A stretch of 64,000 nucleotides of DNA, from NCBI GenBank assembly GCA_015492075.1, contig WGFU01000037.1:1425-65424 (forward strand), given 5' to 3'. Position numbers and translations under genes: made by a program. This document shows positions 12,707 to 29,337 of the stretch, one piece after another; positions within the stretch are counted from its first letter, which is position 1, and every line of letters starts with the position of its first letter. The DNA comes from Gammaproteobacteria bacterium. GTDB lineage: Bacteria > Pseudomonadota > Gammaproteobacteria > GCA-2400775. The notes under the pieces are model-generated. The model did not search any database, had not been told where the DNA came from, and saw nothing but the letters and a program-made list of their open reading frames with translations.

Positions 12707-12718
12707 CACTACATCACC

Positions 12719-13620: not shown

Positions 13621-13625
13621 TTAAC

Positions 13626-13934
13626 TTATTGATCCTTTGCATTCAGGGTTAAATAGTTAGTAATCTCGCTGAGTTCGGACTCGTTAAGCAAACGCATTGC
13701 CCGTTGTGCCCGGTGTCTTTGCATACGCCAAACAACTGCTTGCCATTGCGCTGCCGTTTTTGTTTCCGGCTTGGGCAGGCCGTGGCAACCACTGCAATAA
13801 CGACTCAAGATAGTGTTTGCCGGTAGTTTCTTCACTGTTACTTTCTTATCAAACGCTGCCGGCTTACTATCACAGCCGACACTTAGCACTATCGCAATAA
13901 AGGCAATCAGACTACGGTTTATCCGGCTCATCAT
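13626..13934 (-). CDS. mono-heme c-type cytochrome lipoprotein
   Basis: 102 aa; lipobox LSVGC; single CSGCH heme-binding motif. Confidence 0.6.
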   Translation of the reverse strand: MMSRINRSLIAFIAIVLSVGCDSKPAAFDKKVTVKKLPANTILSRYCSGCHGLPKPETKTAAQWQAVVWRMQRHRAQRAMRLLNESELSEITNYLTLNAKDQ

Positions 13935-15668: not shown

Positions 15669-15690
15669 AGCTGCTTCGCTTATTCTTGCT

Positions 15691-18300
15691 CTACTCGACC
15701 CGGAAGGGTTCTGATTCATACAATGGACTAATCTGATGTAACTGATCCAAGTATTGACGACTGGCGTTGTCATCTTCCAAACGCTGCGCCAAACGCAACA
15801 AGGCCGCAAGCGTAGGTACATGACCCGGCTTAACGGCCAGAATTCGCATCAAACCGGCTTTCTCTGTTTCAGTCGCGACTGTCATGCCAGACATGGACGC
15901 TAACATTCGGTCTGCCAGTGTACCACTGACCCATTGGTCACGTGGATTCCCGCGGTAGGCGAATTGCAAAAAACGCTGTGCTCGCTCGCTGTCACCACGC
16001 AGTTGCGCCTGCCAACTGCGCATTGATGCATCAACAGACAAATAAGAGCGTTCGAAACTTTGCAGATCAGCATATTCAATAGCAAGTTCCTGCGCTGATT
16101 CCCGTGCCTGCGGCCGCTGTGCCAGCAACCAGGAAATAACTTGCTGTAAATCAATCTCGCCACTGTAGCGCACTCGCGGCAAATGATATTCGATACGCGG
16201 CCGCCATTCGTCTTCGATAATACTTGATGGACTATCGATACGGCCGAAATAACGCCCAAGCCATGTCCAAACTCCTTCCCCTCCGGTCTTGCTTTGATCG
16301 GATTCAATGTTGTTTCTGTTGGCCAGCAGATGGCTAGCGCTGATCGCACCATCCTTGCCGCCTACCATCGCCAACCTAAAACCATCGACAAACAAACTAG
16401 CACCGGGGAAGCTTTGTTGAAAACTCTTGAGCACAATTTGCAACGCCTCCAGGTCAAACTGATTTAGCGCCAACCATTGTACAAACAGACCATTGTCGTT
16501 CAGACGCGCTTTAACCCTCTCAAACTGCTGCGATGACAACAACCGACTGCGGCCAACCATGTCAGGATGAAACAAATCGCCAATGATGACATCGTAATGT
16601 TCATGGTTACGCATCAGGTAGCGACGTGCATCATCACGCACGATACGCGCCTTATTGATCACATCACGATTAAGCGGTGAAAACCATTTTTCGGCCGATT
16701 CGATAACGCCTGCCGATAACTCCACCGCAGTGATATCAACATCAAAATCCAGTGCTGCCGATGCAGATATTCCTGTTCCCAAACCCAGGAACAATACTGT
16801 TTCAGCTTTAGAATGCAATAACAAAGGTAAGCGTGCCTGGTTTCTTTGTGCGACCACCGCTGTTGGCTCTGTCGATGCATCCATACGCTGTAAATCTGAC
16901 AACAGCAGACGCTGACCTTCGTTGGTTTCAACCACATGGGTCATCGCTATCGCATCTTCATGTATAAATAGCGTAGAACGACTGTTCGCATGCGCTTGCG
17001 GTAAAAGCTTGGTTACCGACGGCAAATCAGAAAAAACGGCAAAACTAACCAGCAACACTGGCAAGGCCAGCCATAACCTGCGCCACTGGCACCAACGCAT
17101 ACCTACGACAAACAATGTGAGTGCGGCAACAAGAATAGTCGCCGGAGTACCAATTAATGGCATTAATACAAACCCGGCCAACATAGCGCCAAGACCGGCA
17201 CCCACCGCATTAGCGCCATAGAGCCAAGCGCCGGCACTTGCCGAGTCGGCATACGCTCTCACCAATAATGGTAACCATGCGCCAAGACAAAATGTGACAG
17301 TAACCGTCGCCAGCGCTAATACGGCACCTTGCTTCATGAGTACATTCGGTAGCGAGCTGTATGTCAGCGTCTCCGCCCATGCCGATATCGACGGCAGACT
17401 GATTAATGAAACCACTGCTGCAAACGCCGCCACAAGGGGTAATAGATTCAACCAGATGCGGTGTCGCCCCCATTGGGATAAGGCGCTGCCCAGTGCGGTT
17501 CCGACCAGAAACACGGCAATAATCACTGCCAGCACATATTCGGTTCGTAACAATGCCATACCATAGAGCCGCGCCCATGCAACCTGCAATATCAGCGCCG
17601 CTGCACCAATTAAGGCGTAACTCAATAAATCATTAACTGCTGGCCTCGGCTGGCGATGGCCCGTATCTGTGCTTATCGCTGGCATCGACTGTGATAGCAA
17701 TAGAAACAGTATGCCAACAGCGATGCCCAGGGCGGCGATACTATAAAGGCTGTTAACCCAGCCTATGGCTGGCAATAATAAAACGGGGATCAAAGCGCCA
17801 ACGCCTGCCCCCACAGTGTTCGCTGCGTAGACATGGGCTACCGAAATAGACGATTCTTTTATCGCTGCCAGAATCAGGGGGAAACCCAAGCCTAGGGCGG
17901 TCGCTGGCACTAGCATAAAGAATAGAGCACCGATCACCTCCATGCCATGCCAGGCAGCTAGGCCAAGCTCGCCATAAGAACTGACGAGAACATTAACCCA
18001 GTACTCGTTGAGTGCGGGCAAAATGAGCGCATAGAGCGCCACTGCTATCTCAATACATGCAAATATCAGCAAGGGGTTTTTAAACGGTGCGAGAATTATT
18101 CTGCCTAAAATGCTGCCTAGGCCTAAACCGAGCATAAAGGCACTAACCGTAATCACCACGCCAAAATTGCTTACCCCAAACTGCAAGCTCAGCATCCGCA
18201 TCCAGAGCACTTCGTAAGACAGGGCGGCCAACCCCGACAGTGCATAGAGAGTAAGCAGGCTAATGGCGACTAAGCTTGTGTTTGACCGTATGGTGGTCAT
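15691..18300 (-). CDS. fused MFS-like membrane domain / spermidine synthase-like (PABS fold) protein with C-terminal TPR-like region
   Basis: 869 aa; ~14 TM N-terminal region starting LSGLAALSYEVLWMRML; SAM/aminopropyltransferase-like core LFLGLGTGISASAALDFDVDITAVE...DVIIGDLFHP; helical repeat tail. Confidence 0.7.
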   Translation of the reverse strand: MTTIRSNTSLVAISLLTLYALSGLAALSYEVLWMRMLSLQFGVSNFGVVITVSAFMLGLGLGSILGRIILAPFKNPLLIFACIEIAVALYALILPALNEYWVNVLVSSYGELGLAAWHGMEVIGALFFMLVPATALGLGFPLILAAIKESSISVAHVYAANTVGAGVGALIPVLLLPAIGWVNSLYSIAALGIAVGILFLLLSQSMPAISTDTGHRQPRPAVNDLLSYALIGAAALILQVAWARLYGMALLRTEYVLAVIIAVFLVGTALGSALSQWGRHRIWLNLLPLVAAFAAVVSLISLPSISAWAETLTYSSLPNVLMKQGAVLALATVTVTFCLGAWLPLLVRAYADSASAGAWLYGANAVGAGLGAMLAGFVLMPLIGTPATILVAALTLFVVGMRWCQWRRLWLALPVLLVSFAVFSDLPSVTKLLPQAHANSRSTLFIHEDAIAMTHVVETNEGQRLLLSDLQRMDASTEPTAVVAQRNQARLPLLLHSKAETVLFLGLGTGISASAALDFDVDITAVELSAGVIESAEKWFSPLNRDVINKARIVRDDARRYLMRNHEHYDVIIGDLFHPDMVGRSRLLSSQQFERVKARLNDNGLFVQWLALNQFDLEALQIVLKSFQQSFPGASLFVDGFRLAMVGGKDGAISASHLLANRNNIESDQSKTGGEGVWTWLGRYFGRIDSPSSIIEDEWRPRIEYHLPRVRYSGEIDLQQVISWLLAQRPQARESAQELAIEYADLQSFERSYLSVDASMRSWQAQLRGDSERAQRFLQFAYRGNPRDQWVSGTLADRMLASMSGMTVATETEKAGLMRILAVKPGHVPTLAALLRLAQRLEDDNASRQYLDQLHQISPLYESEPFRVE

Positions 18301-18309: not shown

Positions 18310-18684
18310 CTAAAATGGAAAAAACCAAACTACCGCTGCAATTCCATGTGCCAAGGCCAGGGTCACCGTCAAGCCTGCGCTGATCATATGCCAGACGAAC
18401 ACCTGTTTACCATATATGGCCATGCTAATACCCAGCACTGCTGTCGTCAGCACCAGTATTAACAAACTGCTACCCATAACAAAAAGGATGCTGTGTTTTT
18501 GCTTGATGCTGATCGCTCGTGGGCCGAGATCGATATCCTTGTCGGTAAACTCGCTGATCACATCCATGGCGTTATCGGTGGTTGTCACCGCATCGGTAGA
18601 CGCTACTACGGAGCTACCAAATAGCAGCGCCAGCACAAAGCCCACGGTTAAATAACGGCGACGCAACTGCAATAACATGGTCAT
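18310..18684 (-). CDS. hypothetical membrane protein
   Basis: 124 aa; signal peptide plus 2 TM; translationally coupled in the polycistron (4-nt overlap with upstream gene). Confidence 0.4.
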   Translation of the reverse strand: MTMLLQLRRRYLTVGFVLALLFGSSVVASTDAVTTTDNAMDVISEFTDKDIDLGPRAISIKQKHSILFVMGSSLLILVLTTAVLGISMAIYGKQVFVWHMISAGLTVTLALAHGIAAVVWFFPF

Positions 18685-18920
18685 TCAGAATCGGCATCGA
18701 TTTTGTTCTTGCCACTGTAGCGGCGTAAAGCAAAATACCAATACAAGATAGCCAACAGTACAAAAGGGGCCAATACTAAAAAACTGAGAAAAATAAAAAT
18801 CGCCCATGGCGTCTCAATCGTGACGTGAAAAAAACTATAACTGTCGATACCTGCCTGGGCCGAGGCCATTGGCAACAGCAATAACAAAAAAGCATATATG
18901 TTGTGTTTAAAATTAAGCAT
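18681..18920 (-). CDS. hypothetical small membrane protein
   Basis: 79 aa; signal peptide LLLLLPMASAQA plus 1 TM; starts 2 nt after the FGE gene stop. Confidence 0.4.
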   Translation of the reverse strand: MLNFKHNIYAFLLLLLPMASAQAGIDSYSFFHVTIETPWAIFIFLSFLVLAPFVLLAILYWYFALRRYSGKNKIDADSE

Positions 18921-18922
18921 AA

Positions 18923-19993
18923 TTAACCCTGTTCGCCTGTAATATCCTTAACGCAGCGAAAACCATAAAAATCCGAAGCATAGTGAGGAAACGAGTAATT
19001 ACGATGGTAAGAAGAGGTGGCAAAAGGATCACTTTTAAACGAACCGCCGCGCATCACCACATAGCTTGCTTCAACTTCAACCAAGTCGACAACTTTCAGT
19101 GACTTATCCAGCGATGTCGTTGCCTTGCCTATTTTTGGAATAAAGAGTTCCGCTGGTGCGTCGCTGCCTTGATACGCCTTGAATTCGTCTGCGGTCCATT
19201 CGCTAACATTACCTGCCATATCAAACACCCCATAAGGGCTTGCACCAGCAGGATAGCGCGTGACATCGGTCGCAGAACCAACATTATAGTAAGTATTAAG
19301 GTTGTCAGCGTCCATAATATTGCCCCATGGCCAGCGACGACCGTCGACACCGCGAGCGGCCTTTTCCCACTCCATCTCTCGAGGCAATCTTGCCCCTGCC
19401 CAATCGCAATACGCTGCCGCATCATACCAGGACACCATGGTCACTGGCGCCAACAAATCACCTGGTCGCATGCGACCGCCGTCCCAGTGTAAAGGCGGTC
19501 GATGCCCCGTATCGGCAACGAAGCGCGCATATTCCGCATTCGTCACGGGATACTTTCTAATAAAATAGGTATCAAGCCAGGGCCTATGCTCAGGCTTATC
19601 CTGGTCGTTAGCCAGCTTGCGGTTGGTACCCATAATAAACTCGCCAGCTGGGATCTCTATCCAAGTCCCTAGCTCCGACCAAATATCGTCTTTGAGTAAT
19701 TGCTCAGCTTGCTCAATGCTATAGGTGGTTGCGACCGTGTTTAACGCTTCGTTCTCCCGGTGGCGAGTAATATCTTCGCCGGCCGCACGAATGCGAGATG
19801 CCATTTCAGATAAATCGTAGGTGGCATTGGAGCGCATTTGGTCGATACGACTGCCACCCAACTGAACGATATGATAGAAAGCAAACGCGGTCGCTACCGC
19901 TGCGCAAGTGACCAGGGTTGCAGCCAAATAACTTTTGCGCTTTTTACGCTCAGCAGCGCTGACTTCAGGGCGTTGAGGGAAATGTGCCGACAT
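18923..19993 (-). CDS. membrane-anchored formylglycine-generating-enzyme (FGE/SUMF1) family protein, NirV-like
   Basis: 356 aa; N-terminal TM; FGE-sulfatase domain signatures (IPAGEFIMGT, DWAGARLPREMEWEKAARG, RGGSFKSDP). Confidence 0.8.
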   Translation of the reverse strand: MSAHFPQRPEVSAAERKKRKSYLAATLVTCAAVATAFAFYHIVQLGGSRIDQMRSNATYDLSEMASRIRAAGEDITRHRENEALNTVATTYSIEQAEQLLKDDIWSELGTWIEIPAGEFIMGTNRKLANDQDKPEHRPWLDTYFIRKYPVTNAEYARFVADTGHRPPLHWDGGRMRPGDLLAPVTMVSWYDAAAYCDWAGARLPREMEWEKAARGVDGRRWPWGNIMDADNLNTYYNVGSATDVTRYPAGASPYGVFDMAGNVSEWTADEFKAYQGSDAPAELFIPKIGKATTSLDKSLKVVDLVEVEASYVVMRGGSFKSDPFATSSYHRNYSFPHYASDFYGFRCVKDITGEQG

Positions 19994-19994
19994 G

Positions 19995-20486
19995 CTACTT
20001 GTCCGACTTCAGACTGTCTGGTTCATCCTTATAGACAAGATGACGCGGTAGCCGACCATAGGTTTTTTTTACCCATACCTCGCCCAGGATACCGCCAACC
20101 GCGGCAGACTCAATGGCGACGATGATAATAAACCCCATATAACCAATTGGCAGCAAACGCATATCGTCCGGTATCGCGCTGGTACCAGCCACGGTACTAA
20201 AATATTGATGTAGGTAAACAATAAGGGCTGGAAAATAACACAATACCTTACCACCTAGACCGTAGATAAGAGAAACAATAACACCGGCAACGAAGGGGGT
20301 GAAAACTAAGCCAATGAACAAACTAGGGTGAAAATACGAGGTCAGGTCACCGAACAGTTCCATGCGTACTCCGAATATAAAATTCAGTGCATACATCGCT
20401 GCTGCGCCAGCCGTAATGGCAATCAAGGCCCACTTAACAGCCTCTAATTTATTGCCGATCGCCATCGTTCGGACCAGGCCACTCAT
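19995..20486 (-). CDS. hypothetical 4-TM membrane protein
   Basis: 163 aa; 1-nt gap to the FGE gene; overlaps the upstream cytochrome c stop. Confidence 0.45.
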   Translation of the reverse strand: MSGLVRTMAIGNKLEAVKWALIAITAGAAAMYALNFIFGVRMELFGDLTSYFHPSLFIGLVFTPFVAGVIVSLIYGLGGKVLCYFPALIVYLHQYFSTVAGTSAIPDDMRLLPIGYMGFIIIVAIESAAVGGILGEVWVKKTYGRLPRHLVYKDEPDSLKSDK

Positions 20487-20997
20487 TACCGGTTAATTTT
20501 CTGTATTCCAGTTTTTTTAGATCCTCGAGATACCAATCTTCCACCTTCAAGCTAGCCATATAGGCCGCCAGGGTTCGTCTCTCTGACTCTGTCAGATGTG
20601 CATACGAAGGCATACTCCACTCACGCTTTAAGCGACCTTTCAGCATAGTTTGCGGGTTTTCCGAAGAGAAATACTCAAACAACCATTGTTCACTGCGCAA
20701 TGAACCGACACCGTCCAAAATTGGCGCAGGCACAGTCGCCATGATGTTTTTGACCGTCCACAGCGAATGGCATTTTTTACAGTTTTGCGCCTTATAAATT
20801 TTATCGCCGGCACGAGTAAGCTCTTTCGACGCGGTACTGTAAAAGGGAATTGATTTTTCTTGGCTAGGCGTCTCGGAAAAACCAAAATAATTACGCACCA
20901 TCAGCCCGACCACGAAGATGGCCATACCACCCAATATCCATTTTTCACCACGACGCATATTGACTACCCGTTTATATACTGAGACGATGACCACCAA
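20449..20997 (-). CDS. membrane-anchored mono-heme c-type cytochrome (paralog of 27678..28355)
   Basis: 182 aa; N-terminal TM; CKKCH motif. Shares the motif RGEK-TM...C..CH...LDG(V/I)GS(L/R)RS(E/Q)(Q/D)W(L/I)..F(F/L)S with the module B cytochrome. Confidence 0.6.
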   Translation of the reverse strand: MVVIVSVYKRVVNMRRGEKWILGGMAIFVVGLMVRNYFGFSETPSQEKSIPFYSTASKELTRAGDKIYKAQNCKKCHSLWTVKNIMATVPAPILDGVGSLRSEQWLFEYFSSENPQTMLKGRLKREWSMPSYAHLTESERRTLAAYMASLKVEDWYLEDLKKLEYRKLTGNEWPGPNDGDRQ

Positions 20998-21255
20998 TAC
21001 CGAGTAATCGCGATGTGCGCGCTCTGTATTCGCGAGTCAGCAAGAGTACTTGGGGCATACTCGGTGCTTGGAGAATCGCTCCTAGTCGATTCGAATTAGA
21101 GTGCTCACCTAATAACATGCTATTAATTTTTGCTCACGTGGGGGGCACGTAGAGAGCGCATAGCCCGCCTTCCATTCGCACTTCAACTTGCCTCCACCAG
21201 CCCCTGTGATTGGATTGACCAAAAACGCTGCAATCTAACTTGCCTCGCCAAAAGC

Positions 21256-21540
21256 TCAAGAACCTTGCTCTGCACTGCGCGCCGCCCTTTGCTTAGCCAA
21301 TACTTCGGCACGACGCTTTTCTTGTGCTGCATTAACTGCTTGCGATTTGGCAAACTCCTCTGGACTCATCTTATCCCGGTCTTTTTCATCGAATACGAGA
21401 TATTTGATATCTTCATCAAACTGCTCATTTTTATACGCCCATCGAATACCGTAGATAGCAGCAATAATAATACCGCCTGCCGCGACCATCCACAGATAGA
21501 TTGTCCACCCATCAGGTAAGGCTTGCATGAATTCAGTCAT
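21256..21540 (-). CDS. CcoQ/FixQ-like small subunit
   Basis: 94 aa; single TM followed by IRWAYKNEQFDEDIKYLVFDE, matching the FixQ pattern TM-W(A)Y..K(R)K..FDE. Confidence 0.45.
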   Translation of the reverse strand: MTEFMQALPDGWTIYLWMVAAGGIIIAAIYGIRWAYKNEQFDEDIKYLVFDEKDRDKMSPEEFAKSQAVNAAQEKRRAEVLAKQRAARSAEQGS

Positions 21541-21549
21541 CGGTCTCTC

Positions 21550-21840
21550 CTAAATAAGCTGGCCAAAAAGCAATTGCGCCGCGCCATATATCACCGCACA
21601 CACCAGGCCAAATATCAGCCAGACAAACAATATCACCTCGCCACGGCGCATACCCTCCTTCTGCGCATCCCTGGTAAATTTGTAAACAATCACCGCAAAC
21701 AAAACGATACCAGCCATCATAAAGAAAAAAATACCGATACTGTATTCTTGGGACTTCATCCCTTCGATCGTAAACTGGTCTAGCTCCTCATCGGAGAGAA
21801 CAATCGCTTGTTGGTCGGTTTCGTTCATTAGGTGACACAC
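21550..21840 (-). CDS. hypothetical 2-TM small membrane protein
   Basis: 96 aa; first gene after the hairpin terminator; 9-nt gap to the CcoQ-like gene. Confidence 0.4.
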   Translation of the reverse strand: MCHLMNETDQQAIVLSDEELDQFTIEGMKSQEYSIGIFFFMMAGIVLFAVIVYKFTRDAQKEGMRRGEVILFVWLIFGLVCAVIYGAAQLLFGQLI

Positions 21841-21898
21841 GAACTAACACAGTAGTAGACAATGCTAGACTGAAAAAGGTTTAAAAATTCTAAGAAAA

Positions 21899-21920
21899 AT
21901 GCCGCTCAGATGAGCGGCAT
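21899..21920. terminator. intrinsic terminator hairpin inside the oxidase locus
   Basis: ATGCCGCTC-AGAT-GAGCGGCAT, a perfect 9-bp stem with 4-nt loop. It is followed on the minus strand by TTTTTCTTAGAATTTTT and lies 195 bp after the CcoP-N-like gene. Confidence 0.5.
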
Positions 21921-22114
21921 TTCCTTATTTCCTTCAGAAGTGCGCTAAGAAGCCACGCACAGGCTATTTTACTGCTTATCAGACTTGTCGAATTTATCAA
22001 TCATAAAGCTATAGATATAAGGTGCTACGAACACGACCAAAATAGGTATGAGTATTATTAATGGTGGATTATCGATTTCTAACATTTCATTTCACCTGTA
22101 ACTGTAAGTAATGC

Positions 22115-22744
22115 CTAATGACCGATTGAGTGGTCGGGCTGCCAATCAGACGGCGGCAAGCGCTTAACAACAATCATTACGGCTATACAAAAATAGAGCA
22201 CATAAAAAACGTCGATGGTGTAACCGAGATCCCAAGATGGCTGAACCCGAATCTTAACACCATCATCGCCAATCTCACCTTCAAAGTTTGCTAACGCCAC
22301 GTCTTTACCTACGACAGTATAGTAGTCCATATGGGCATTTTCGCGCTGCAATTCGATGATTTGGTCTTTAATTAGTCGCAGATCATTCATAGTTAACGGA
22401 TGACGATCCTGATGACCAGCCCATTTCGAACCCTGAGATTTCACTGTATTAACAATGTATTCCATTTTTGCTTCATCGTCAGGTAATTTAGCAACTTCTG
22501 GCGAGTCCATGAGCGCGATATATTCTTCGTATATCGCAGCCATCGGGCGTTGCCCCCACAAAGGCGCAGTAATCAAAAAGGCAGTAATAATAGTCAGAAC
22601 CAACAACCAGACCACGGCTTGTGGCAAACGGTTATTGTCCTCCATAATACCACCCAGGCTTTCATGTTCCCAAACATACTTCGCTTGCTCATTCTGGTCA
22701 TCAGTTGCCAGGGTATAAAGTGGTTTATCGAATTTCCAAGCCAT
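22115..22744 (-). CDS. CcoP N-terminal-like membrane protein lacking both heme c domains
   Basis: 209 aa; EHESLGGIMEDNNRLPQAVVWLLVL matches the CcoP N-terminal motif; TM, periplasmic domain and a C-terminal TM; no CxxCH. Confidence 0.5.
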   Translation of the reverse strand: MAWKFDKPLYTLATDDQNEQAKYVWEHESLGGIMEDNNRLPQAVVWLLVLTIITAFLITAPLWGQRPMAAIYEEYIALMDSPEVAKLPDDEAKMEYIVNTVKSQGSKWAGHQDRHPLTMNDLRLIKDQIIELQRENAHMDYYTVVGKDVALANFEGEIGDDGVKIRVQPSWDLGYTIDVFYVLYFCIAVMIVVKRLPPSDWQPDHSIGH

Positions 22745-22771
22745 GTGGCTATCCCTCCCAGGAGAACTTAA

Positions 22772-23722
22772 TTACTTCAAACTCAAAACATAATCCATGA
22801 GATAACGTATTTCGCTATTTGGCGCATAATCGGGAACCTCAGGCGGATAAATACTCGTACCGGCGGCGTAAGCATTATAATCCGCCCGCCATTGATCATA
22901 GTCAATATCGTTACCATTAGCATCCACTTCACCCCAGAGATAATCGAAGCGAGGCATAATTGAATGTGGCTGCACCAATCTTGGGTTAAAGAAGTGCATC
23001 ATCAGCCATTCTTTTGACGAGTTACGTGAACCAACATGCAGCAAGTCAGGCGCTTTGCGATCCGAACCAAAGGCTGTTGGCGCTTCACCATTAAAGTCTC
23101 CCAGCCGCGGCGGTAAACCGAAGTATTGCCAATCCTGTGTTTGTTCTGGCAATAGTGTGTGACACCACCAGCAACCTTCACGCACAAACATGGTCTTACC
23201 GCTACCTACATGCTGCTTATCGCTGTCTGCAGCAGCTGCCAATACCAACTCAGCTGTCCAGTCACGCGTTGCCGTCACATTTTCGATATAAGGGAAGGTC
23301 TCCCCTTCGTAGTCACCACGCGACACCAAAAATACAGCGCCTTGATCTTCCTCTGCTTCACCCACGCGACCCTCGTCGGCACTTAAGGCCTGCACTTCCC
23401 TACCCAAAATATCTGGGTTACGAATTGCGCTCGGAAAAGGTGTCCCGGCGGTATAAACATAGGCATCTACCGGGTCAATATCCGCGCCAGTAACTGGGTC
23501 TTTTTTAACCGTCACCGTTAAAGGCTTGCCTTTCCCTCGCAAGAATGGGTCTTCATACGAGAAACCAGAGTTATGACCATAGGACAGACCTTTGACCAGA
23601 CCAGTTTCCGTCACACCCACACTATAGATAGTTAAGCTGGGCATATAGAGGGTGATCATCATTGAACCACCCAGGGCGATACCAAACATGCGGGTACCAA
23701 TTTTATATTCTCTAAAAGCCAT
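22772..23722 (-). CDS. CcoO/FixO-like mono-heme cytochrome c subunit with ~110-aa insertion
   Basis: 316 aa; N-terminal TM; CWWCH; C-terminal NSSKEWLMMHFFNPRLVQPHSIMPRF resembles the conserved CcoO C-terminal segment; heme motif displaced to ~residue 180. Confidence 0.7.
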   Translation of the reverse strand: MAFREYKIGTRMFGIALGGSMMITLYMPSLTIYSVGVTETGLVKGLSYGHNSGFSYEDPFLRGKGKPLTVTVKKDPVTGADIDPVDAYVYTAGTPFPSAIRNPDILGREVQALSADEGRVGEAEEDQGAVFLVSRGDYEGETFPYIENVTATRDWTAELVLAAAADSDKQHVGSGKTMFVREGCWWCHTLLPEQTQDWQYFGLPPRLGDFNGEAPTAFGSDRKAPDLLHVGSRNSSKEWLMMHFFNPRLVQPHSIMPRFDYLWGEVDANGNDIDYDQWRADYNAYAAGTSIYPPEVPDYAPNSEIRYLMDYVLSLK

Positions 23723-23784
23723 TATTCATTACTCCGCTAAAGGTTAACGCTATTCGTATTTTTTCAAATCTACACGAGCAGCTA

Positions 23785-25191
23785 TTAACGTTCGTAAGCG
23801 ATTTCATGCGGTAAGCGTCCCACTGGCACCGGTGTACCTGCACGAGCCGTCATCCACATGTTGTAGAGCCATACAACGTTACCAGTAAATACCATGGTAC
23901 CGCCAACCCAACGCGCAATCATGTACGGATGCTCCGCAATCACCACGTCGATATACGGCACTTCGTAGATCTTGGCAGCGCCTTGAATCAAACCGGCAAT
24001 CGTGATCGAAATCCAGTAGGTGGCGAAACCGATCAGCAAGAACCAGAAATGAAAGTTGGCCAGCGCCAAAGAGTAGATCTTGCGACGCAGAATCGTTTGC
24101 AGACCATAGTACACGGCTGCCGCCTCAAGGAAGGTCGAGAAACCCAGCAAAGCAAGGTGAGCATGAGCGACAATCCAGCCAGTGCCATGGACATACCAGT
24201 TGATCGCACGTGTCTGCTGAAAACCGCCCTGCATATTCAAAGGAATCGCCAGCATAACCCCGGTGATGGTGAACCGGATCTCAATATTATCAACAAAGTA
24301 ATGCCACTTGCCCGTCATGGTTAACAACAAGTTCGACACGAATGCGATCGCAGGCACCAGAATCAACACCCCTTCAACAGAAGCGAAAGATTTCAGCCAC
24401 TCAGGCAGTGGTGAAGACATCAAATGGTGGGCTGCCGGCGTTGAGTAGAACACCACCACCGACCAGAAATGCAAGTGACCAATACGGTGAGAGTACAGTG
24501 GGTTACCGGTAATTTTCGGCACCGTATAGTATGCAATCGCCGCCGCCACCGGGGTAATCCACAGGCCAAGGATGTTATGGGCATGCCACCAGGTCAAATA
24601 GGCTTCGGTCAATCCAGTCAGGGAAAAGTATTCCGGCAGATTACCGACCAGCACCACGATCATCAGCATGAATATCGCCGCACCAAAGAACCAGTTGGTG
24701 GTATAGATACCCTGCGTCTTACGATGAACAATGGTCATCCAGACATTGATTCCCAGCGGCAGCAATACTGCAAACAGGATAATCAAATCAATCGGCCATG
24801 GAAAATCAGTGTATTCACGGCCTGAAGTCACACCGGCCCACATCAAACACAAAGCGACGGCAAGACCACCGTTCCAGTTGAAGCAGGTCCAGATGCCCAG
24901 CTTCTCGGACCATAGCTTGGTATTACCCAAGGCAGGCGTGATATACATAAAGGCCATTGCAAACGCCATGGAAATCCAGCCAAAAATAACGGCCATGACA
25001 TGAACCTGGCGCATATGACCAAAGGCAAACATATAGCTACCGGTAACAAAATCCGGAAAAGCCAACTTGGCTGCGTTGAAAGAACCTAGTCCAGTACCAA
25101 TAATGAACCAGATAATGGATGAAAACCCAAAAAAGACAGCCGCAGAACCTGCGGGAATATCTTCGTTCTTCGCAAAGAGATACTTGAACAT
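23785..25191 (-). CDS. C-family (cbb3-type) heme-copper oxidoreductase subunit I, CcoN-like, divergent
   Basis: 468 aa, 12 TM. W201-W-H-A-H205-N replaces the CcoN WWYGHN motif; Y249-5x-H255-H256 (crosslink Tyr plus CuB His pair) and helix-X H343-x-H345 are present; heme ligand region FGHMRQVHVMAVIF. Confidence 0.85.
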   Translation of the reverse strand: MFKYLFAKNEDIPAGSAAVFFGFSSIIWFIIGTGLGSFNAAKLAFPDFVTGSYMFAFGHMRQVHVMAVIFGWISMAFAMAFMYITPALGNTKLWSEKLGIWTCFNWNGGLAVALCLMWAGVTSGREYTDFPWPIDLIILFAVLLPLGINVWMTIVHRKTQGIYTTNWFFGAAIFMLMIVVLVGNLPEYFSLTGLTEAYLTWWHAHNILGLWITPVAAAIAYYTVPKITGNPLYSHRIGHLHFWSVVVFYSTPAAHHLMSSPLPEWLKSFASVEGVLILVPAIAFVSNLLLTMTGKWHYFVDNIEIRFTITGVMLAIPLNMQGGFQQTRAINWYVHGTGWIVAHAHLALLGFSTFLEAAAVYYGLQTILRRKIYSLALANFHFWFLLIGFATYWISITIAGLIQGAAKIYEVPYIDVVIAEHPYMIARWVGGTMVFTGNVVWLYNMWMTARAGTPVPVGRLPHEIAYER

Positions 25192-25275
25192 GGGACCTGT
25201 GCTCCGTTTAAGACGTAAAACTTAAATTAAAAAGATCATCAAAATATTGCCGATTTAGACCTTCAGCGGCATCGG

Positions 25276-25368
25276 CTAGTGTTTACCCGGCATCATCAAA
25301 TACCAAGCGAACCACATGCTTGAGAATGCCAGCACAATACAAAATACAGTTGCGATAATAGTAACCAT
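25276..25368 (-). CDS. 30-aa single-TM peptide, unannotated (candidate small oxidase subunit)
   Basis: MVTIIATVFCIVLAFSSMWFAWYLMMPGKH; GAGGA RBS 6 nt upstream; lies between the 95-aa gene and the CcoN-like gene; weak paralogy to the peptide at 29338..29430. Confidence 0.4.
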   Translation of the reverse strand: MVTIIATVFCIVLAFSSMWFAWYLMMPGKH

Positions 25369-25398
25369 CGTTTTTCCTCTATTTAGTACGTGTCGCGC

Positions 25399-25686
25399 TT
25401 AGGCTGCAGCACGTGACTGCGCTTCCAAAGCACCATGACGTGACGCAGAAATCATCATGATCGCCATAAAGGCAAAGCCGAACACAATCATGCACCAATT
25501 GATGAAGCCCATAAAGGTGGTTGGATCATAGGCCTGACCACCCCAACCGCCCCAGTCATCAAAACGACCGCGACCGAGAGCACACATCAATGCGGCACCA
25601 AAAACACTGCCGTTGCCCATGCCGGTGGTAACACCAGCAACCAAGCTCACCCAAAAAGTTTTCGAATATGGCAATAAATTGTCCAT
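25399..25686 (-). CDS. hypothetical 2-TM membrane protein, first gene of the CcoN-like operon
   Basis: 95 aa; AAGGAG RBS 5 nt upstream; Gly/Trp-rich loop (DDWGGWGGQ). Confidence 0.4.
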   Translation of the reverse strand: MDNLLPYSKTFWVSLVAGVTTGMGNGSVFGAALMCALGRGRFDDWGGWGGQAYDPTTFMGFINWCMIVFGFAFMAIMMISASRHGALEAQSRAAA

Positions 25687-25916: not shown

Positions 25917-26141
25917 ATGATGCCTTATCATAACTGGATATCAATAAAAGAAATTATTCTCTACCTTATCGCCATTGTCACGGGCCTTTTTATCGCTGCT
26001 TATTCGGTACATATGTTGATTGGTGGACTTGTCAGCGCTACCACTGAGAAAACCATTATCGCCATTGTCTGCACCCTCATGGCACTGGCCATCGGATTCA
26101 TGGTTTACGACGTGAAAAAACAGCGTGAAAAACAGGGCTGA
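25917..26141 (+). CDS. hypothetical 2-TM small membrane protein
   Basis: 74 aa; only plus-strand gene in the island interior; divergent from the CcoN-like operon. Confidence 0.35.
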   Translation: MMPYHNWISIKEIILYLIAIVTGLFIAAYSVHMLIGGLVSATTEKTIIAIVCTLMALAIGFMVYDVKKQREKQG

Positions 26142-26157
26142 GCGCCCCCAGATGCAT

Positions 26158-26610
26158 TTATTTGTATACGCGCAGACTTGCCAGTGCATCATCATAAACG
26201 GCCTGAGACTCGAACTGACCACGATGAAAAACGTATTGGCGTTTTTTGCCCGACATATCAATCCCTGTTAGACCAAAGGATTTGCCAGCGTAATCTGAAA
26301 AAAAACGCACTTCTTTCACCAGCGCAACCTGGTCATTATTGCGTAGCCGGACACTGACGTGCTGCTTACTCACACTCAGCGCAACCGGTGCGCTCGGCAA
26401 CAACATCAGTCGACCGGAAAGAATGCGGTTGGCGCCGATAAAGGCCATAAAACTAGCGAGAAACATCAGCAAATAGGCAAACGCTTGATTATTCTGGTGC
26501 CACAGCACCAATGAATAAGCACCAAGCAAAATCACCACTGGCAGATACAGCAATGAATCCCACGCCGCGCCGCGCCGGTCTGGCGTTAATTTGTAATCAC
26601 TTTTGGCCAC
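26158..26610 (-). CDS. membrane protein with C-terminal PH-like (YdbT/bPH-type) domain
   Basis: 150 aa; 2 N-terminal TM plus ~80-aa soluble domain; last gene of module B. Confidence 0.4.
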   Translation of the reverse strand: MAKSDYKLTPDRRGAAWDSLLYLPVVILLGAYSLVLWHQNNQAFAYLLMFLASFMAFIGANRILSGRLMLLPSAPVALSVSKQHVSVRLRNNDQVALVKEVRFFSDYAGKSFGLTGIDMSGKKRQYVFHRGQFESQAVYDDALASLRVYK

Positions 26611-26614
26611 AAAA

Positions 26615-27172
26615 CTATCCTGCGTCGGCTAAGGTCTCGGCCAGTAAAGCGTCCATTTCACCATAAAGCATACGACCTGGCCGCCTGAACTTAACTTGTC
26701 GGTCGGCGCCAATAACAAATGTCCACGGATCACCTTGGACACCAAATGCAGTGAAAGCTTCAGGGTTTTGATACTGATCCATATGCAAAAACAGCACATC
26801 ATCTTCGTACTTATTCAATATGGCTTTGAGCATCTGCAGCTGTTTATCGCATACCGTACAATGTCCAGGTGTAGCAAATTCGAGCAAAATCGTCTTGTTT
26901 TGCGCCAAGGCTTCATCGATCGAAAGCTGATACATGCGGGCATCGGGATGTCTGTAGGTTGTAATGCGGCTGAAATCACCGTTCACGTCCGCCAGCGTCT
27001 TGGTCTTCAATGACGGGGCGATCGCACCAACCCGAAGCTGACCCTCTGGCCTGATATCGCATGCGCTTAAGGCTGCTGCTACTACGATTGTCAGCAATAT
27101 TGCTATAAACGGCCTCACGAGACCTCCTTCGCAGACGATGATGGTGCGCTGCCTAGAACGTCTTTTTCCCAA
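26615..27172 (-). CDS. thioredoxin-fold (TlpA/ResA-like) thiol-disulfide oxidoreductase lipoprotein
   Basis: 185 aa; lipobox LSAC; CxxC active site FATPGHCTVC; redoxin fold length. Confidence 0.6.
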   Translation of the reverse strand: MGKRRSRQRTIIVCEGGLVRPFIAILLTIVVAAALSACDIRPEGQLRVGAIAPSLKTKTLADVNGDFSRITTYRHPDARMYQLSIDEALAQNKTILLEFATPGHCTVCDKQLQMLKAILNKYEDDVLFLHMDQYQNPEAFTAFGVQGDPWTFVIGADRQVKFRRPGRMLYGEMDALLAETLADAG

Positions 27173-27681
27173 CCGACACAGCTACGAAAAACGTTATAGC
27201 CCCAGATAATGTTGGCTAACAGCACCATACTGCCAAAGATGCCCATCGCAGCCAACCAAGGCCTGATTATGGCTTCCACTTCATCGGGCGGCAAACTCAC
27301 ACTCGCAGTACCACCGAGAATACCTGCAATCGTAAACAAACTCACCATACCGATCAGACCGGTGTTATGGATCCAAAAGTGTACTTTTACCAATTTCAAA
27401 CTGAAAATAGGGCGTTTAACCAAACGCGGCACGAAATAATACACCGAGGCAAAAATCGCCATCTCCACCCAGCCTAACAGGTTAACGTGGGTGTGCGCGC
27501 GTACAATCAGCTGCCCATGTGCGCGATGATCGACGAAATGGCGCAGTTCGGCCACCCCTCCCATTAACGCACCCCAGGAAAAGCCGATTATGCTGTAGAT
27601 GATACAGGCATAAAGAAACCACAGTGTATAACGCGTGTATTCAATATCTGTCTCCCAGGGGGAGTGACTCGAAACCTTCAC
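27115..27681 (-). CDS. stand-alone heme-copper oxidase subunit I C-terminal-like membrane protein (half subunit I), paralog of 12191..12706
   Basis: 188 aa, ~5 TM; RAHTHVNLLGWVEMAIFASVYYFVPRL and HFWIHNTGL align to helix IX-XII of the CcoN-like protein; 4-nt overlap with the upstream cytochrome c gene. Confidence 0.5.
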   Translation of the reverse strand: MKVSSHSPWETDIEYTRYTLWFLYACIIYSIIGFSWGALMGGVAELRHFVDHRAHGQLIVRAHTHVNLLGWVEMAIFASVYYFVPRLVKRPIFSLKLVKVHFWIHNTGLIGMVSLFTIAGILGGTASVSLPPDEVEAIIRPWLAAMGIFGSMVLLANIIWGYNVFRSCVGWEKDVLGSAPSSSAKEVS

Positions 27682-28355
27682 TGCTGCGCCTCCGGGTTTT
27701 CAGCCAATTTCCCATTGGGAGACTTCAGGACTTCGGTAAAATTCTTGTCACGCACATCACCGTATTTCTCTTTCCAGCTTTCCGGCGCCCAGATACTGAG
27801 CATGCTCTCAATAAACGGCGAGCGCCCTTCCGGCGGCTTAGGTGCCGTTGAGGAACCCTGTTTAGCACGCAGTTGAGACAAAAACGTTGCGATCAAGTCA
27901 TGCTCTCGCGGCGTCAGCTCAGCCACATAGGCAGCTTCTTTACCCAAACCGTGATCAAGCGTTGCTGCGTGGTAGGTGTCTTTGTATACCGGCTCTGGGT
28001 CACTGAGAAAGCGCCTGATCCAATCCTGGCTACGACGCGAGCCAATACCATCGAGCGTGGTCTGACCGCCCATACTCGTGCCAGACAAAAAAGCACGATG
28101 ACAAGACGCACAACGCTTAGCCTTGAAAAGTCGATGGCCCTTATTGCCGTCTTCGGACAAATCAAAACTGGTGAGATTTGAAAAAATCTGCTTGTTCGAA
28201 GTCAGGCGATACCCTTCCAAGCCGACATAACCCACCAACGCCACCACAATAAATACACCAGCGATGCCAAATAAGACCTTTTCGCCTCGCTTTAGCCTCG
28301 ACTTCGCAGCCATAAAAACCCCGCAATTATTCCAGATAAAACAAAAGGTGGACAA
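27678..28355 (-). CDS. membrane-anchored mono-heme c-type cytochrome (paralog of 20449..20997)
   Basis: 225 aa; N-terminal TM; CASCH; shares RGEK...LDGIGSRRSQDWIRRFLSDP with the module A cytochrome. Confidence 0.6.
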   Translation of the reverse strand: MSTFCFIWNNCGVFMAAKSRLKRGEKVLFGIAGVFIVVALVGYVGLEGYRLTSNKQIFSNLTSFDLSEDGNKGHRLFKAKRCASCHRAFLSGTSMGGQTTLDGIGSRRSQDWIRRFLSDPEPVYKDTYHAATLDHGLGKEAAYVAELTPREHDLIATFLSQLRAKQGSSTAPKPPEGRSPFIESMLSIWAPESWKEKYGDVRDKNFTEVLKSPNGKLAENPEAQQ

Positions 28356-28419
28356 GCCACCCTTTGCTTAGTTCAAACCCGCACCATCATGCCATGGCGC
28401 GGGATACCACATACCGAAC

Positions 28420-29181: not shown

Positions 29182-29337
29182 TACTACACCCTCCAAAAAA
29201 CTGTGTCGAGGCCGTAACCGGCCTTTTGTTAAAGGTAGTCTGTGACCTACTGCCAACGCAGAGCATTTCACTATGCAGCAGCCAATAATGTCAGATCTAT
29301 GTCAGGTAAGTGAATCACCTACCATTTTTTGGTTTGC

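What the first reader, a model, noticed from the sequence alone, without database searches (positions are those of the whole stretch)
19995..25686. Non-canonical C-family (cbb3-like) heme-copper oxidoreductase operon with altered subunit set
The 468-aa subunit I keeps the hallmark C-family active site: the crosslink Tyr six residues before the CuB His pair (Y249...H255-H256), the helix-VI His (H205) and helix-X HxH (H343/H345). However, the near-invariant CcoN motif WWYGHN reads WWHAHN.

Its partners are all atypical:
- The CcoO-like mono-heme subunit carries a ~110-aa insertion between its membrane anchor and CWWCH.
- The CcoP-like protein has the conserved N-terminal motif but no heme c domains at all, and ends in an extra TM.
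- A separate membrane mono-heme cytochrome c, a CcoQ-like protein, a 95-aa 2-TM protein and a 30-aa peptide complete the set.

The canonical ccoNOQP architecture, with a di-heme CcoP, is therefore replaced. This could be an undescribed variant of oxygen or NO reductase. From the sequence alone the substrate (O2 versus NO) cannot be decided.
Basis: partly seen in the sequence, partly recalled or inferred. Interest (0 to 1): 0.8.

Follow-up and report, generated by a model that had tools for sequence, protein, structure and literature searches.

The report
Known "distal" cbb3-type oxidase cluster
This is an intact operon for a divergent cbb3-type oxygen-reducing respiratory enzyme that lacks the usual two-haem third subunit; the same large gene cluster is conserved in hundreds of iron-oxidising and electrode-feeding bacteria and is already noted in the literature, but has never been studied biochemically.

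Summary
The subunit I active site, the WWHAHN motif, the ~115-aa insertion in CcoO and the haem-less CcoP-like protein are all as described.

None of it is an assembly or frameshift artefact. The same genes, in the same order, occur in 80 of 80 related genomic loci examined. A close relative is encoded in 354 species-level genomes, including Gallionella, Sideroxydans, Nitrotoga, Ferrovum, Ca. Tenderia, Chromatiales, Thiotrichales and Zetaproteobacteria.

It is not undescribed. The clade very probably matches the "distal" cbb3 oxidase of the iron-oxidiser literature. The whole ~26-gene region (window 12191-29271) matches, gene for gene, the conserved "cbb3-1/cbb3-2" region published for Ca. Tenderia electrophaga.

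Sequence criteria favour O2 over NO reduction: three CuB histidines, the cross-link tyrosine, no FeB glutamate, and CcoS- and CcoG-like maturation genes.

I add four details:
- The "CcoQ-like" gene is CcoS-like.
- The separate monohaem cytochrome is a CcoO-like paralogue.
- The CcoP remnant keeps the conserved N-terminal motif.
- The clade uniquely replaces a near-universal proton-channel tyrosine (Y317A, S240G, I241H).

Verdict: a member of a known but uncharacterised kind, of moderate interest.

The parts
23785..25191 (-). Subunit I (CcoN-like, 468 aa): low-spin haem b, and high-spin haem b3-CuB with the cross-link Tyr. It is a divergent C-family clade.
   Evidence: COX1 248 bits; TIGR00780 223 of 583 bits. 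Best solved relative 3mk7_A, E 4e-65. All metal ligands kept. At least 82% identical in the 80 loci.
22772..23722 (-). Subunit II (CcoO-like, 316 aa): N-terminal membrane helix, an inserted alpha/beta domain of about 115 aa (residues ~60-175), then a monohaem c domain (CWWCH 184-188, SIMP Met ligand, GSDR Ca-site Ser).
22115..22744 (-). Haem-less CcoP remnant (209 aa): conserved E..LGGI.E.N.R.P motif, a TM helix at about 42-62, a helical periplasmic domain, and a C-terminal TM helix at about 175-194.
   Evidence: FixP_N matched in 32 of 47 members, best E 1.4e-5. Zero CxxCH in 80 of 80. AF2 pLDDT 70. No PDB fold or sequence match. All sources that give a name call it 'hypothetical protein'; most give none.
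25399..25686 (-). Conserved 95-aa glycine-rich membrane protein, first gene of the operon and a candidate small subunit.
   Evidence: Found in 79 of 80 loci, median 62% identity, always just upstream of subunit I.
25276..25368 (-). Conserved 30-aa single-TM peptide, a candidate small subunit.
   Evidence: Found in 52-66 of 80 loci in the same position.
21969..22085 (-). Conserved 38-aa single-TM peptide (M..DNPPL...P.IYSFF.D), a candidate small subunit occupying the place of CcoQ. There is no FixQ match.
   Evidence: Found in 64-73 of 80 loci. No Pfam match.
21550..21840 (-). Conserved 2-TM protein (96 aa), function unknown.
   Evidence: Found in 69-74 of 80 loci. TM segments at 34-52 and 69-87.
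21256..21540 (-). CcoS/FixS-like maturation protein (94 aa) with a charged C-terminal extension.
   Evidence: Pfam FixS matched by 11 of 12 orthologues, best E 2.1e-5. Invariant W..N.QFDEDIKY.
20449..20958 (-). Membrane-anchored monohaem cytochrome c (CKKCH) with a CcoO-like haem domain (LDGVGS.RS..W). It is a candidate electron-entry subunit standing in for the CcoP haems. The conserved start is the ATG at 20958, not the TTG at 20997.
   Evidence: Cytochrom_C 38 bits and weak FixO. One CxxCH in 75 of 75. Paralogue of 27678-28355, E 7e-14. Orthologues align from residue 14.
19995..20486 (-). Conserved polytopic membrane protein (163 aa), function unknown.
   Evidence: Found in 68 of 80 loci. 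Three TM segments.
18923..19993 (-). Membrane-anchored FGE-sulfatase-domain protein (356 aa), a possible copper or cofactor maturation factor (inference only).
   Evidence: PF03781 181 bits. Found in 68 of 80 loci in the same position. Listed as 'serine threonine protein kinase' in the Tenderia region.
18310..18920 (-). Two conserved small membrane proteins (79 aa at 18681-18920; 124 aa at 18310-18684).
   Evidence: Found in 66 and 64 of 80 loci.
15691..18300 (-). Fused MFS / spermidine-synthase-like membrane protein (869 aa).
   Evidence: NF037959 100 bits against a cut-off of 40. Found in 60 of 80 loci; the rest are cut by locus ends.
14361..15821 (-). CcoG/FixG-like polyferredoxin (cupric reductase family). 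The start codon is uncertain; orthologues align from about residue 45.
   Evidence: TIGR02745 108 bits, below the 317 cut-off. Fer4_5 and Fer4_18. It follows the MFS fusion in every one of the 9 metagenome loci that has upstream flank; the tenth has no usable flank.
12191..14361 (.). Distal end of the conserved region: a 149-aa membrane protein (13912-14361, -), a 102-aa lipoprotein monohaem cytochrome c (13626-13934, -), a 126-aa lipoprotein (13240-13620, -), a 174-aa protein (12719-13243, +) and a second truncated CcoN (12191-12706, +).
   Evidence: Conserved in 6-9 of 10 metagenome loci. Pfam results. Matches genes 22-26 of the Tenderia region.
25917..29271 (.). Upstream module: a di-haem c4-type cytochrome (28420-29271, -; Cyc1-like), a CcoO-like anchored monohaem cytochrome (27678-28355, -), a truncated CcoN with AHTH (27115-27681, -), a thioredoxin-like protein (26615-27172, -), a 150-aa membrane protein (26158-26610, -) and a 74-aa ORF (25917-26141, +).
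   Evidence: Present in 52-57 of 80 loci. Inverted in Sideroxydans, and absent within 7.5 kb upstream in some Gallionella. Pfam and NCBIfam. The 74-aa ORF is in 47 of 80 loci. Matches genes 2-7 of the Tenderia region.

Best explanation
The region encodes a proton-motive, O2-reducing C-family (cbb3-type) haem-copper oxidase. It belongs to the divergent clade that the iron-oxidiser literature very probably means by 'distal' cbb3.

**Catalytic core.** The core is CcoN-like subunit I (haem b, haem b3-CuB, His-Tyr cofactor) plus a CcoO-like monohaem cytochrome c. That cytochrome carries an extra periplasmic domain of about 115 aa.

**CcoP remnant.** The canonical di-haem CcoP has been reduced to a haem-less remnant. 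It keeps only the part that packs against subunit I: the conserved N-terminal motif with an invariant Glu, and its TM helix.

**Electron entry (inferred).** Electrons enter through CcoO directly or through the co-encoded, membrane-anchored, CcoO-like monohaem cytochrome. That cytochrome would be fed by the adjacent periplasmic di-haem (Cyc1-type) cytochrome. This suits high-potential electrons from Fe(II), sulfur compounds or electrodes.

**Other genes.** Several small TM proteins are likely extra subunits. The CcoS-like and CcoG-like proteins, and perhaps the FGE-domain and MFS-fusion proteins, serve haem and copper maturation.

**Basis.** Shown here: homology, ligand conservation, synteny and conservation. 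Inferred: subunit membership, the electron path, proton pumping and the maturation roles.
For: **Active site.**
- All six His ligands, the cross-link Tyr and the Ca-site Glu are conserved, and no Glu sits at the FeB position.
- The CcoO CxxCH, Met and Ser are conserved.
- By the published criteria, NORs lack the active-site Tyr and use a four-ligand FeB site (His3 plus Glu).

**Maturation genes.** A CcoS-like gene lies inside the operon and a CcoG-like gene at its end.

**Conservation.**
- Subunit I is at least 76% identical across Gamma-, Beta- and Zetaproteobacteria.
- A close relative is in 354 species genomes, and gene order is kept.

**Partner proteins.**
- The CcoP remnant has the FixP_N motif in 32 of 47 members and invariant E35, N37 and P41.
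- C182 is a CcoO-like paralogue.

**Literature.**
- Distal ccoNO in S. lithotrophicus ES-1 is expressed at about the 99th percentile under microoxic growth, with a two-haem cyc1 homologue beside the cluster.
- In Ca. Tenderia, one of several non-canonical 'complex IV' gene sets (complex IV-2) is among the most highly expressed genes. Whether it is this cluster was not checked.
- The orthologous Tenderia region is interpreted as 'a sort of alternative complex IV'.
Against: - No biochemical data exist for any member.
- Subunit I fails the NCBIfam ccoN equivalog cut-off (223 against 583 bits).
- Two residues of the single C-family proton channel are lost. Y317 is Ala here, against Tyr in 42 of 43 other oxidase-like representatives. 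S240 is Gly. Proton uptake or pumping may therefore differ or be impaired.
- The CcoP homology rests on a sub-threshold motif match. Neither a profile search nor a fold search recovers CcoP chains.
- Which small proteins are true subunits is untested.
- In Ca. Tenderia the authors' view of the main oxidase changed between papers.
Confidence: 0.78

Rival explanations
1. The catalytic genes are only one part of a larger, distinct membrane machine, an 'alternative complex IV'. In it the two truncated-CcoN modules, their CcoO-like cytochromes, the thioredoxin and the many small membrane proteins work together. The machine would be dedicated to extracellular electron uptake rather than general microaerobic respiration.
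For: - The whole 12.2-29.3 kb neighbourhood is conserved, including both truncated CcoN genes that keep the AHxH haem-ligand motif.
- The host range is dominated by lithoautotrophs: Fe(II), sulfur and nitrite oxidisers and electroautotrophs.
- The Tenderiales preprint proposes exactly this and notes a distribution similar to the uet electron-uptake cluster.
Against: - The upstream module is inverted in Sideroxydans. It is missing within 7.5 kb upstream in several Gallionella and Nitrotoga loci that keep the core operon. It is therefore separable.
- Nitrotoga is a nitrite oxidiser, not an iron oxidiser.
- In ES-1 the distal genes were higher on thiosulfate than on Fe(II).
Confidence: 0.15
2. 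It is a nitric oxide reductase, or another non-O2 enzyme, derived from the C family, as the first reader left open.
For: - cNOR, qNOR and related enzymes branch with the C family, and C-family oxidases reduce NO in vitro.
- Subunit I is divergent, the proton channel is altered, and Q replaces E323.
Against: - The cross-link Tyr and all three CuB His are invariant, and Gly (not Glu) sits at the FeB-ligand position.
- Q323 is the majority state among non-canonical C-family oxidase-like representatives, 34 of 43.
- There are no norD or norQ genes.
- Copper-type maturation genes (CcoS- and CcoG-like) are present.
- The hosts are microaerophiles that often have no other high-affinity cytochrome c oxidase.
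Confidence: 0.04
3. The unusual features (haem-less CcoP, long CcoO) are annotation, assembly or frameshift artefacts, or the operon is decaying.
For: Nothing found.
Against: - The same lengths and motifs occur in 79-80 of 80 independent assemblies.
- Hundreds of full-length homologues exist for each protein.
Confidence: 0.01

Closest known systems
Conserved 'cbb3-1/cbb3-2' region of Candidatus Tenderia electrophaga (ALP51721-ALP51744; Tenderiales comparative-genomics preprint, bioRxiv 10.1101/2022.05.06.490989; see also the 2017 mSystems metatranscriptome paper PMC5371394)
   Same: The gene list and order are the same: di-haem cytochrome, monohaem cytochrome, truncated CcoN, thioredoxin, small proteins, CcoN, CcoO, hypotheticals, monohaem cytochrome, FGE-domain protein ('Ser/Thr kinase'), small TM proteins, CcoG, monohaem cytochrome, second truncated CcoN. 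The Tenderia CcoN ALP51729.1 belongs to a 90%-identity cluster whose representative is 84% identical to the window protein.
   Different: - A different host: a Thiotrichales-like marine gammaproteobacterium, 98-99% identical to MAGs including NORP163 and NORP174.
- The window has a unique 297-nt intergenic insert.
- The published description leaves the CcoP-like, CcoS-like and small proteins unannotated.
'Distal' cbb3-type oxidase of neutrophilic iron oxidisers (the Ducluzeau et al. 2008 subtree, as used for S. lithotrophicus ES-1, Zetaproteobacteria and Gallionellaceae)
   Same: - Close relatives (at least 82% identical) occur in Sideroxydans, Gallionella and Nitrotoga, and at 76-79% in Zetaproteobacteria.
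- The clade lies outside the P. stutzeri-type group.
- A two-haem cyc1 homologue lies beside the cluster, as reported for Slit_2657.
   Different: I could not read Ducluzeau et al. 2008 or map locus tags. The equation of this clade with their 'distal' subtree is therefore an inference from taxa and topology, not a direct test.
Ferrovum sp. JA12 ccoNO cluster (FERRO_02510-02610; PMC4725956)
   Same: The same clade: a Ferrovum sp. protein, WP_297462258.1, is in a cluster 81% identical to the window protein. The authors report only subunits I and II, with co-localised c-type cytochromes proposed to replace subunit III.
   Different: The host is an acidophile. The accessory genes are not analysed there.
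Canonical cbb3 oxidase CcoNOQP (P. stutzeri 3MK7; R. capsulatus 6XKW)
   Same: - The same fold and ligands in CcoN (E 4e-65, about 33% identity).
- The same CcoO haem domain and Ca site.
- The CcoP N-terminal motif.
- Dependence on CcoS- and CcoG-type factors.
   Different: - No CcoP haem domains and no CcoQ.
- CcoO carries an inserted domain of about 115 aa.
- Substitutions Y317A, S240G, I241H, T321N and E323Q.
- WW[F/H/N]AHN instead of WWYGHN.
- Extra small subunits, and no ccoH or ccoI in the cluster.
cNOR / qNOR
   Different: NORs lack the active-site Tyr and have a Glu ligand for FeB. The window protein has Tyr and Gly at these positions.

Membership tests
C-family haem-copper O2 reductase (cbb3-type) | Subunit I with axial His for low-spin haem b (2), His for high-spin haem b3 (1) and three His for CuB. 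| tested here: met
   H64, H345; H343; H205, H255, H256 align to Pst H60, H347; H345; H207, H257, H258. The motifs are found in 102-120 of 120 clade clusters.
C-family haem-copper O2 reductase (cbb3-type) | Cross-link tyrosine supplied by helix VII, six residues before the HH pair. | tested here: met
   Y249 aligns with Pst Y251, and FYSTPAAHH is conserved. The covalent cross-link itself cannot be tested from sequence.
C-family haem-copper O2 reductase (cbb3-type) | CcoO: a membrane-anchored monohaem cytochrome c with CxxCH and Met, sharing the Ca2+ site with CcoN. | tested here: met
   FixO 61 bits. CWWCH, SIMP and GSDR are conserved. E126 of subunit I equals Pst E122. It also carries an extra inserted domain.
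C-family haem-copper O2 reductase (cbb3-type) | Single K(C) proton channel residues: T215, Y223, S240, H243, N289 and Y317 (Pst numbering; roles recalled from Buschmann 2010, Hemp 2007 and Ahn 2014, which were not read here). | tested here: inconclusive
   T, Y, H and N are kept. S240 becomes G and Y317 becomes A in 7 of 7 clade sequences, against S in 38 of 43 and Y in 42 of 43 outside. A clade-specific His replaces the hydrophobic residue at 241.
Canonical ccoNOQP enzyme (NCBIfam ccoN, ccoO and ccoP equivalogs) | Scores above the curated equivalog cut-offs. | tested here: not met
   ccoN 223 against 583; ccoO 59 against 201; ccoP 14 against 180.
Canonical ccoNOQP enzyme | Di-haem CcoP subunit. 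| tested here: not met
   The CcoP-like protein has zero CxxCH in 80 of 80. The only di-haem cytochrome nearby is a separate c4-type protein, predicted periplasmic, in the upstream module.
Canonical ccoNOQP enzyme | CcoQ (FixQ) small subunit. | tested here: not met
   There is no FixQ match for any small ORF, even at E 10.
cNOR / qNOR nitric oxide reductases | No active-site Tyr, and an FeB site with a Glu ligand four residues after the first His, plus further conserved Glu. | tested here: not met
   Y249 is present, G209 sits at the Glu position, and Q321 replaces the Glu at 323.
'Distal' cbb3 / Tenderiales cbb3-1/2 conserved region | Orthology of CcoN and conserved order of the roughly 26 neighbouring genes. 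| tested here: met
   ALP51729.1 is in a cluster 84% identical to the window protein. The gene-by-gene order matches the published list.
'Distal' subtree of Ducluzeau et al. 2008 | Placement in their CcoN phylogeny. | not testable with these tools
   The paper and its data set are not held. The link is indirect: the papers that use the term cover taxa (Sideroxydans, Gallionellaceae, Zetaproteobacteria) that carry this clade.

The most novel reading that the evidence does not exclude
The clade is not simply 'cbb3 without CcoP'. It would be a structurally distinct oxidase of eight or more subunits, with three defining changes:
- The only proton-input channel has been rebuilt. The near-universal channel tyrosine (Y317) and serine (S240) are lost, and an invariant histidine appears one residue after S240 (I241H). 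This would be a residue migration like the known helix switch of the C-family cross-link tyrosine.
- The CcoP haems are replaced by a second, CcoO-like membrane-anchored cytochrome.
- The CcoO insertion domain forms a docking site for Cyc1-type donors.

Such an enzyme could have a different H+/e- stoichiometry or redox tuning, suited to the very small energy span of Fe(II) or electrode oxidation.
Probability: 0.3. Interest if true: 0.65.

Novelty: new member of a known kind. Interest (0 to 1): 0.35.

Why it matters
This clade is the main, or the only, high-affinity cytochrome c oxidase in many neutrophilic iron oxidisers, nitrite-oxidising Nitrotoga and cathode-feeding Tenderiales. It probably terminates the Cyc2 to Cyc1 to O2 chain on which their very tight energy budget depends.

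No member has been purified. The accessory genes are still annotated 'hypothetical'. The proton channel carries substitutions that would be expected to inactivate a canonical cbb3 oxidase.

The refined annotation given here provides concrete, cheap targets for structural and mutational work:
- a haem-less CcoP remnant with the channel-entrance Glu motif;
- a CcoS-like factor;
- a CcoO-like second cytochrome;
- the Y317A, S240G and I241H substitutions.

It is not, however, a new discovery of a system.

Tried and rejected
- **Frameshift or assembly artefact:** rejected by 80-locus synteny and length conservation.
- **Fold of the CcoP remnant:** AF2 gives only pLDDT 70. Foldseek against the PDB finds nothing below E 3.7. 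A family profile against PDB sequences does not recover CcoP chains.
- **afdb50 fold search:** the library was unavailable.
- **CcoQ:** no FixQ match for any small ORF.
- **Rfam over the whole window:** no hit.
- **The 297-nt window-specific insert:** no copy elsewhere in the window or in the loci, and no significant RNA structure (z -0.5).
- **Promoter and terminator scans:** promoter-like sites are no more frequent than in shuffled sequence, and terminator-like sites only modestly more (22 against 13.3, sd 3.6). Neither defines operon boundaries.
- **Unavailable papers:** Ducluzeau 2008 and Barco 2015 could not be read. No open-access paper listing the K(C)-channel residues was found, so those roles rest on my recollection.
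- **WWHAHN as a diagnostic:** rejected, because the position is variable both inside the clade and across non-canonical C-family enzymes.

Full report
**What is there**

Between 25686 and 19995 the minus strand carries a tight series of intact ORFs:
- a 95-aa and a 30-aa membrane protein;
- a 468-aa subunit I;
- a 316-aa CcoO-like cytochrome;
- a 209-aa protein;
- a 96-aa 2-TM protein;
- a 94-aa protein;
- a monohaem cytochrome c;
- a 163-aa membrane protein.

Subunit I matches Pfam COX1 (248 bits). It reaches only 223 of the 583 bits required by the NCBIfam ccoN equivalog. Its best solved relative is P. stutzeri CcoN (3mk7_A, E 4e-65).

In that alignment every metal ligand is kept. H64 and H345 bind haem b, H343 binds haem b3, and H205, H255 and H256 bind CuB. 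Y249 aligns with the cross-link tyrosine and E126 with the Ca-site glutamate.

CcoO homology covers only residues 174-269 of the 316-aa protein. The haem motif CWWCH sits about 115 residues later than in canonical CcoO. The 209-aa protein has no haem motif and gives a weak FixP_N match.

**Not an artefact, and not rare**

A word-indexed search found 347 protein clusters at E 1e-10 or better. The best 120 are 76-100% identical, almost all 468-470 aa long, and are annotated 'cbb3-type cytochrome c oxidase subunit I'. They come from Gamma-, Beta- and Zetaproteobacteria and from mine drainage.

A scan of one genome per species found 354 genomes that encode a relative. The 80 best (at least 82% identical) include Gallionella, Sideroxydans, Ca. 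Nitrotoga, Ca. Tenderia, Chromatiales, Ectothiorhodospiraceae and Thiotrichales. They also include gammaproteobacterial MAGs, among them NORP163 and NORP174, that are 98-99% identical. Cluster membership adds Ca. Tenderia electrophaga ALP51729.1, Ca. Nitrotoga arctica and Ferrovum sp..

tblastn of 19 window proteins against the 80 loci gave these results:
- The complete order recurs in 30 loci.
- The core order, from the 95-aa protein to the fused MFS/spermidine-synthase protein, recurs in nearly all loci not cut by contig ends.
- The CcoP-like protein is present in 79 of 80 loci, with a median length of 208 aa and no CxxCH in any copy.
- CcoO keeps its length of 316 aa and a single CxxCH in 80 of 81 copies.

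Frameshift and decay explanations are therefore excluded.

**The unit is larger than the finding**

- an anchored FGE-sulfatase-domain protein;
- two small membrane proteins;
- an 869-aa fused MFS/spermidine-synthase protein;
- a CcoG-like polyferredoxin (TIGR02745, 108 bits).

A metagenome scan seeded with the CcoG-like protein recovered 10 loci. In every locus with upstream flank, the CcoG-like gene follows the same genes. Further on come a small membrane protein, a lipoprotein monohaem cytochrome, a lipoprotein and, on the other strand, a second truncated CcoN.

Upstream lies a five-gene module:
- a di-haem c4-type cytochrome;
- an anchored monohaem cytochrome;
- a 188-aa truncated CcoN that keeps the AHTH haem-ligand motif;
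- a thioredoxin-like protein;
- a 150-aa membrane protein.

This module is present in 52-57 of 80 loci. It is inverted in Sideroxydans, and absent within 7.5 kb upstream in some Gallionella and Nitrotoga loci. The conserved neighbourhood spans 12191-29271.

**Placement**

An exhaustive HMMER search of 1.84 billion 50%-identity representatives shows the clade as a single cluster (representative 86% identical). The next hits are one sister at 57% (partial alignment), one at 40%, and many at 35% or less.

Canonical P. stutzeri-type representatives (WWYGHN, S240, H243, Y317, T321, E323) are only 28-30% identical. They form a separate group in a neighbour-joining tree. The window clade sits on its own long branch among the diverse Q323-type enzymes.

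Inside the clade it reads WWFAHN in 81 of 120 clusters, WWHAHN in 17 and WWNAHN in 9. Other non-canonical C-family enzymes show WFYGHN, GLWIHD, GYYMHQ and more.

What is unique emerges from a comparison with 43 other oxidase-like representatives:

| Position (Pst numbering) | Other representatives | This clade |
|---|---|---|
| 317 | Tyr in 42 of 43 | Ala in 7 of 7 |
| 240 | Ser in 38 of 43 | Gly or Ala |
| 241 | always hydrophobic | His in 7 of 7 |

From my knowledge of the P. stutzeri structure and the Gennis-lab mutagenesis, S240 and Y317 line the single K(C) proton channel. I did not re-read those papers. A compensating His is a plausible but untested reading.

**O2 or NO?**

Murali et al. 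2024 state that HCO oxygen reductases need the His-Tyr cofactor and a three-His CuB. All NOR families lack the tyrosine, and cNOR and qNOR add a glutamate ligand for FeB.

The window protein keeps the tyrosine and all three histidines, and has Gly at the glutamate position. Three further points favour an oxidase:
- Eleven of 12 orthologues of the 94-aa protein match FixS/CcoS, the factor needed for cbb3 cofactor insertion.
- A CcoG-like gene closes the operon.
- No norD or norQ is present.

In S. lithotrophicus ES-1 the distal ccoN and ccoO are expressed at about the 99th percentile in microoxic cultures. I therefore commit to an O2 reductase, with confidence of about 0.8.

**The partners**

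*CcoP remnant.* The FixP_N motif is matched by 32 of 47 family members, best E 1.4e-5. The residues E..LGGI.E.N.R.P are invariant or nearly so. In canonical enzymes this segment precedes the TM helix that packs on CcoN and, as I recall, provides the glutamate at the channel entrance.

The AF2 model is of moderate quality (pLDDT 70). It shows a TM helix, a helical periplasmic domain and a C-terminal TM helix, and has no match in the PDB.

*Monohaem cytochrome at 20449-20958.* It is N-terminally anchored. It is a paralogue (27% identity, E 7e-14) of the cytochrome next to the truncated CcoN. Both carry a CcoO-like LDG[VI]GS.RS..W segment and weak FixO matches. It is the obvious candidate to replace the CcoP haems as electron entry.

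*Di-haem cytochrome upstream.* It corresponds in type to Cyc1: Slit_2657 has two haems and is reported next to the cbb3 cluster.

*Small ORFs.* No small ORF matches FixQ.

**Comparison with what is known**

- The preprint on Tenderiales lists, for Ca. T. electrophaga, a conserved region of 26 orthologues. Its order is identical to the window. The authors say it was already noted in freshwater iron oxidisers, and they interpret it as 'a sort of alternative complex IV'.
- The 2017 metatranscriptome paper reports several non-canonical 'complex IV' gene sets, one of which (complex IV-2) is among the most highly expressed genes. It also mentions the polyferredoxin within the syntenic region. I did not check whether complex IV-2 is this cluster.
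- Papers on ES-1, Zetaproteobacteria and Gallionellaceae distinguish proximal and distal cbb3 after Ducluzeau et al. 2008.
- The Ferrovum JA12 paper notes the missing subunit III and suggests that co-localised cytochromes replace it.
- Only CcoN and CcoO were seen in the M. ferrooxydans PV-1 proteome.

The system is therefore known at the genomic and expression level, and uncharacterised biochemically.

**Verdict**

The finding is real.

What this analysis adds is annotation detail and a specific proton-channel anomaly worth testing. I rate it a new member of a known kind, with interest 0.35. I give a 0.3 chance that the enzyme proves mechanistically distinct enough to deserve about 0.65.

Noticed in passing
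window 27115-27681 (-) and 12191-12706 (+): Two stand-alone 'truncated CcoN' proteins (188 and 171 aa) correspond to the last four helices of subunit I. Both keep the AHxH haem-ligand motif but have no CuB ligands. The 188-aa copy lies directly beside a CcoO-like anchored monohaem cytochrome; the 171-aa copy has a small lipoprotein monohaem cytochrome two genes away. Both are conserved with the cluster. Their function is unknown.
   Followed up: partly
window 20959-21256: A ~297-nt intergenic insert lies between the CcoS-like gene and the monohaem cytochrome gene. In 73 related loci the two genes abut or nearly so (gap mostly -23 to +41 nt, at most 120). The insert has no copy elsewhere in the window or in the loci, no Rfam hit and no significant RNA fold (z -0.5).
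   Followed up: yes
window 21897-21922: A perfect 11-bp-stem palindromic hairpin (AAATGCCGCTCA GATG AGCGGCATTT) sits in the 128-nt gap between the 38-aa peptide gene and the 96-aa gene. It is a possible internal attenuator or processing site separating structural genes from accessory genes.
   Followed up: no
window 23785-25191, residues G238, H239, A315 (Pst 240, 241, 317): A clade-specific triple change sits in the region of the K(C) proton channel. Y317A and I241H occur in 7 of 7 clade sequences and S240 is Gly or Ala. Outside the clade, position 317 is Tyr in 42 of 43, position 241 is never His, and position 240 is Ser in 38 of 43.
   Followed up: partly
window 18923-19993 and 15691-18300: An anchored FGE-sulfatase-domain protein and an 869-aa fused MFS/spermidine-synthase protein are fixed members of the oxidase cluster in most loci. 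A role in copper delivery or cofactor maturation is conceivable but untested. The former is annotated 'Ser/Thr kinase' in Ca. Tenderia.
   Followed up: no
window 13912-14361 (-): A 149-aa membrane protein after the CcoG-like gene gives a very weak FixP_N match (E 0.04). It may be a second CcoP N-terminal remnant belonging to the second truncated-CcoN module.
   Followed up: no
subunit I against accessory genes across loci L001-L080: Subunit I is at least 76% identical across three proteobacterial classes and forms a single 50%-identity cluster. The co-linear accessory proteins are only 40-65% identical. This points to extreme constraint on subunit I, lateral spread of the cluster among lithoautotrophs, or both.
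   Followed up: no
L032 and L055 (Sideroxydans MAGs), positions ~790-3860: The five-gene upstream module is inverted relative to the oxidase operon. The di-haem Cyc1-like gene is therefore divergently adjacent to the 95-aa gene.
   Followed up: partly
window 14361-15821 against 15691-18300: The longest ORF of the CcoG-like gene overlaps the end of the MFS-fusion gene by about 130 nt. Orthologues align only from residue 45-52, so the true start is probably an internal Met.
   Followed up: no
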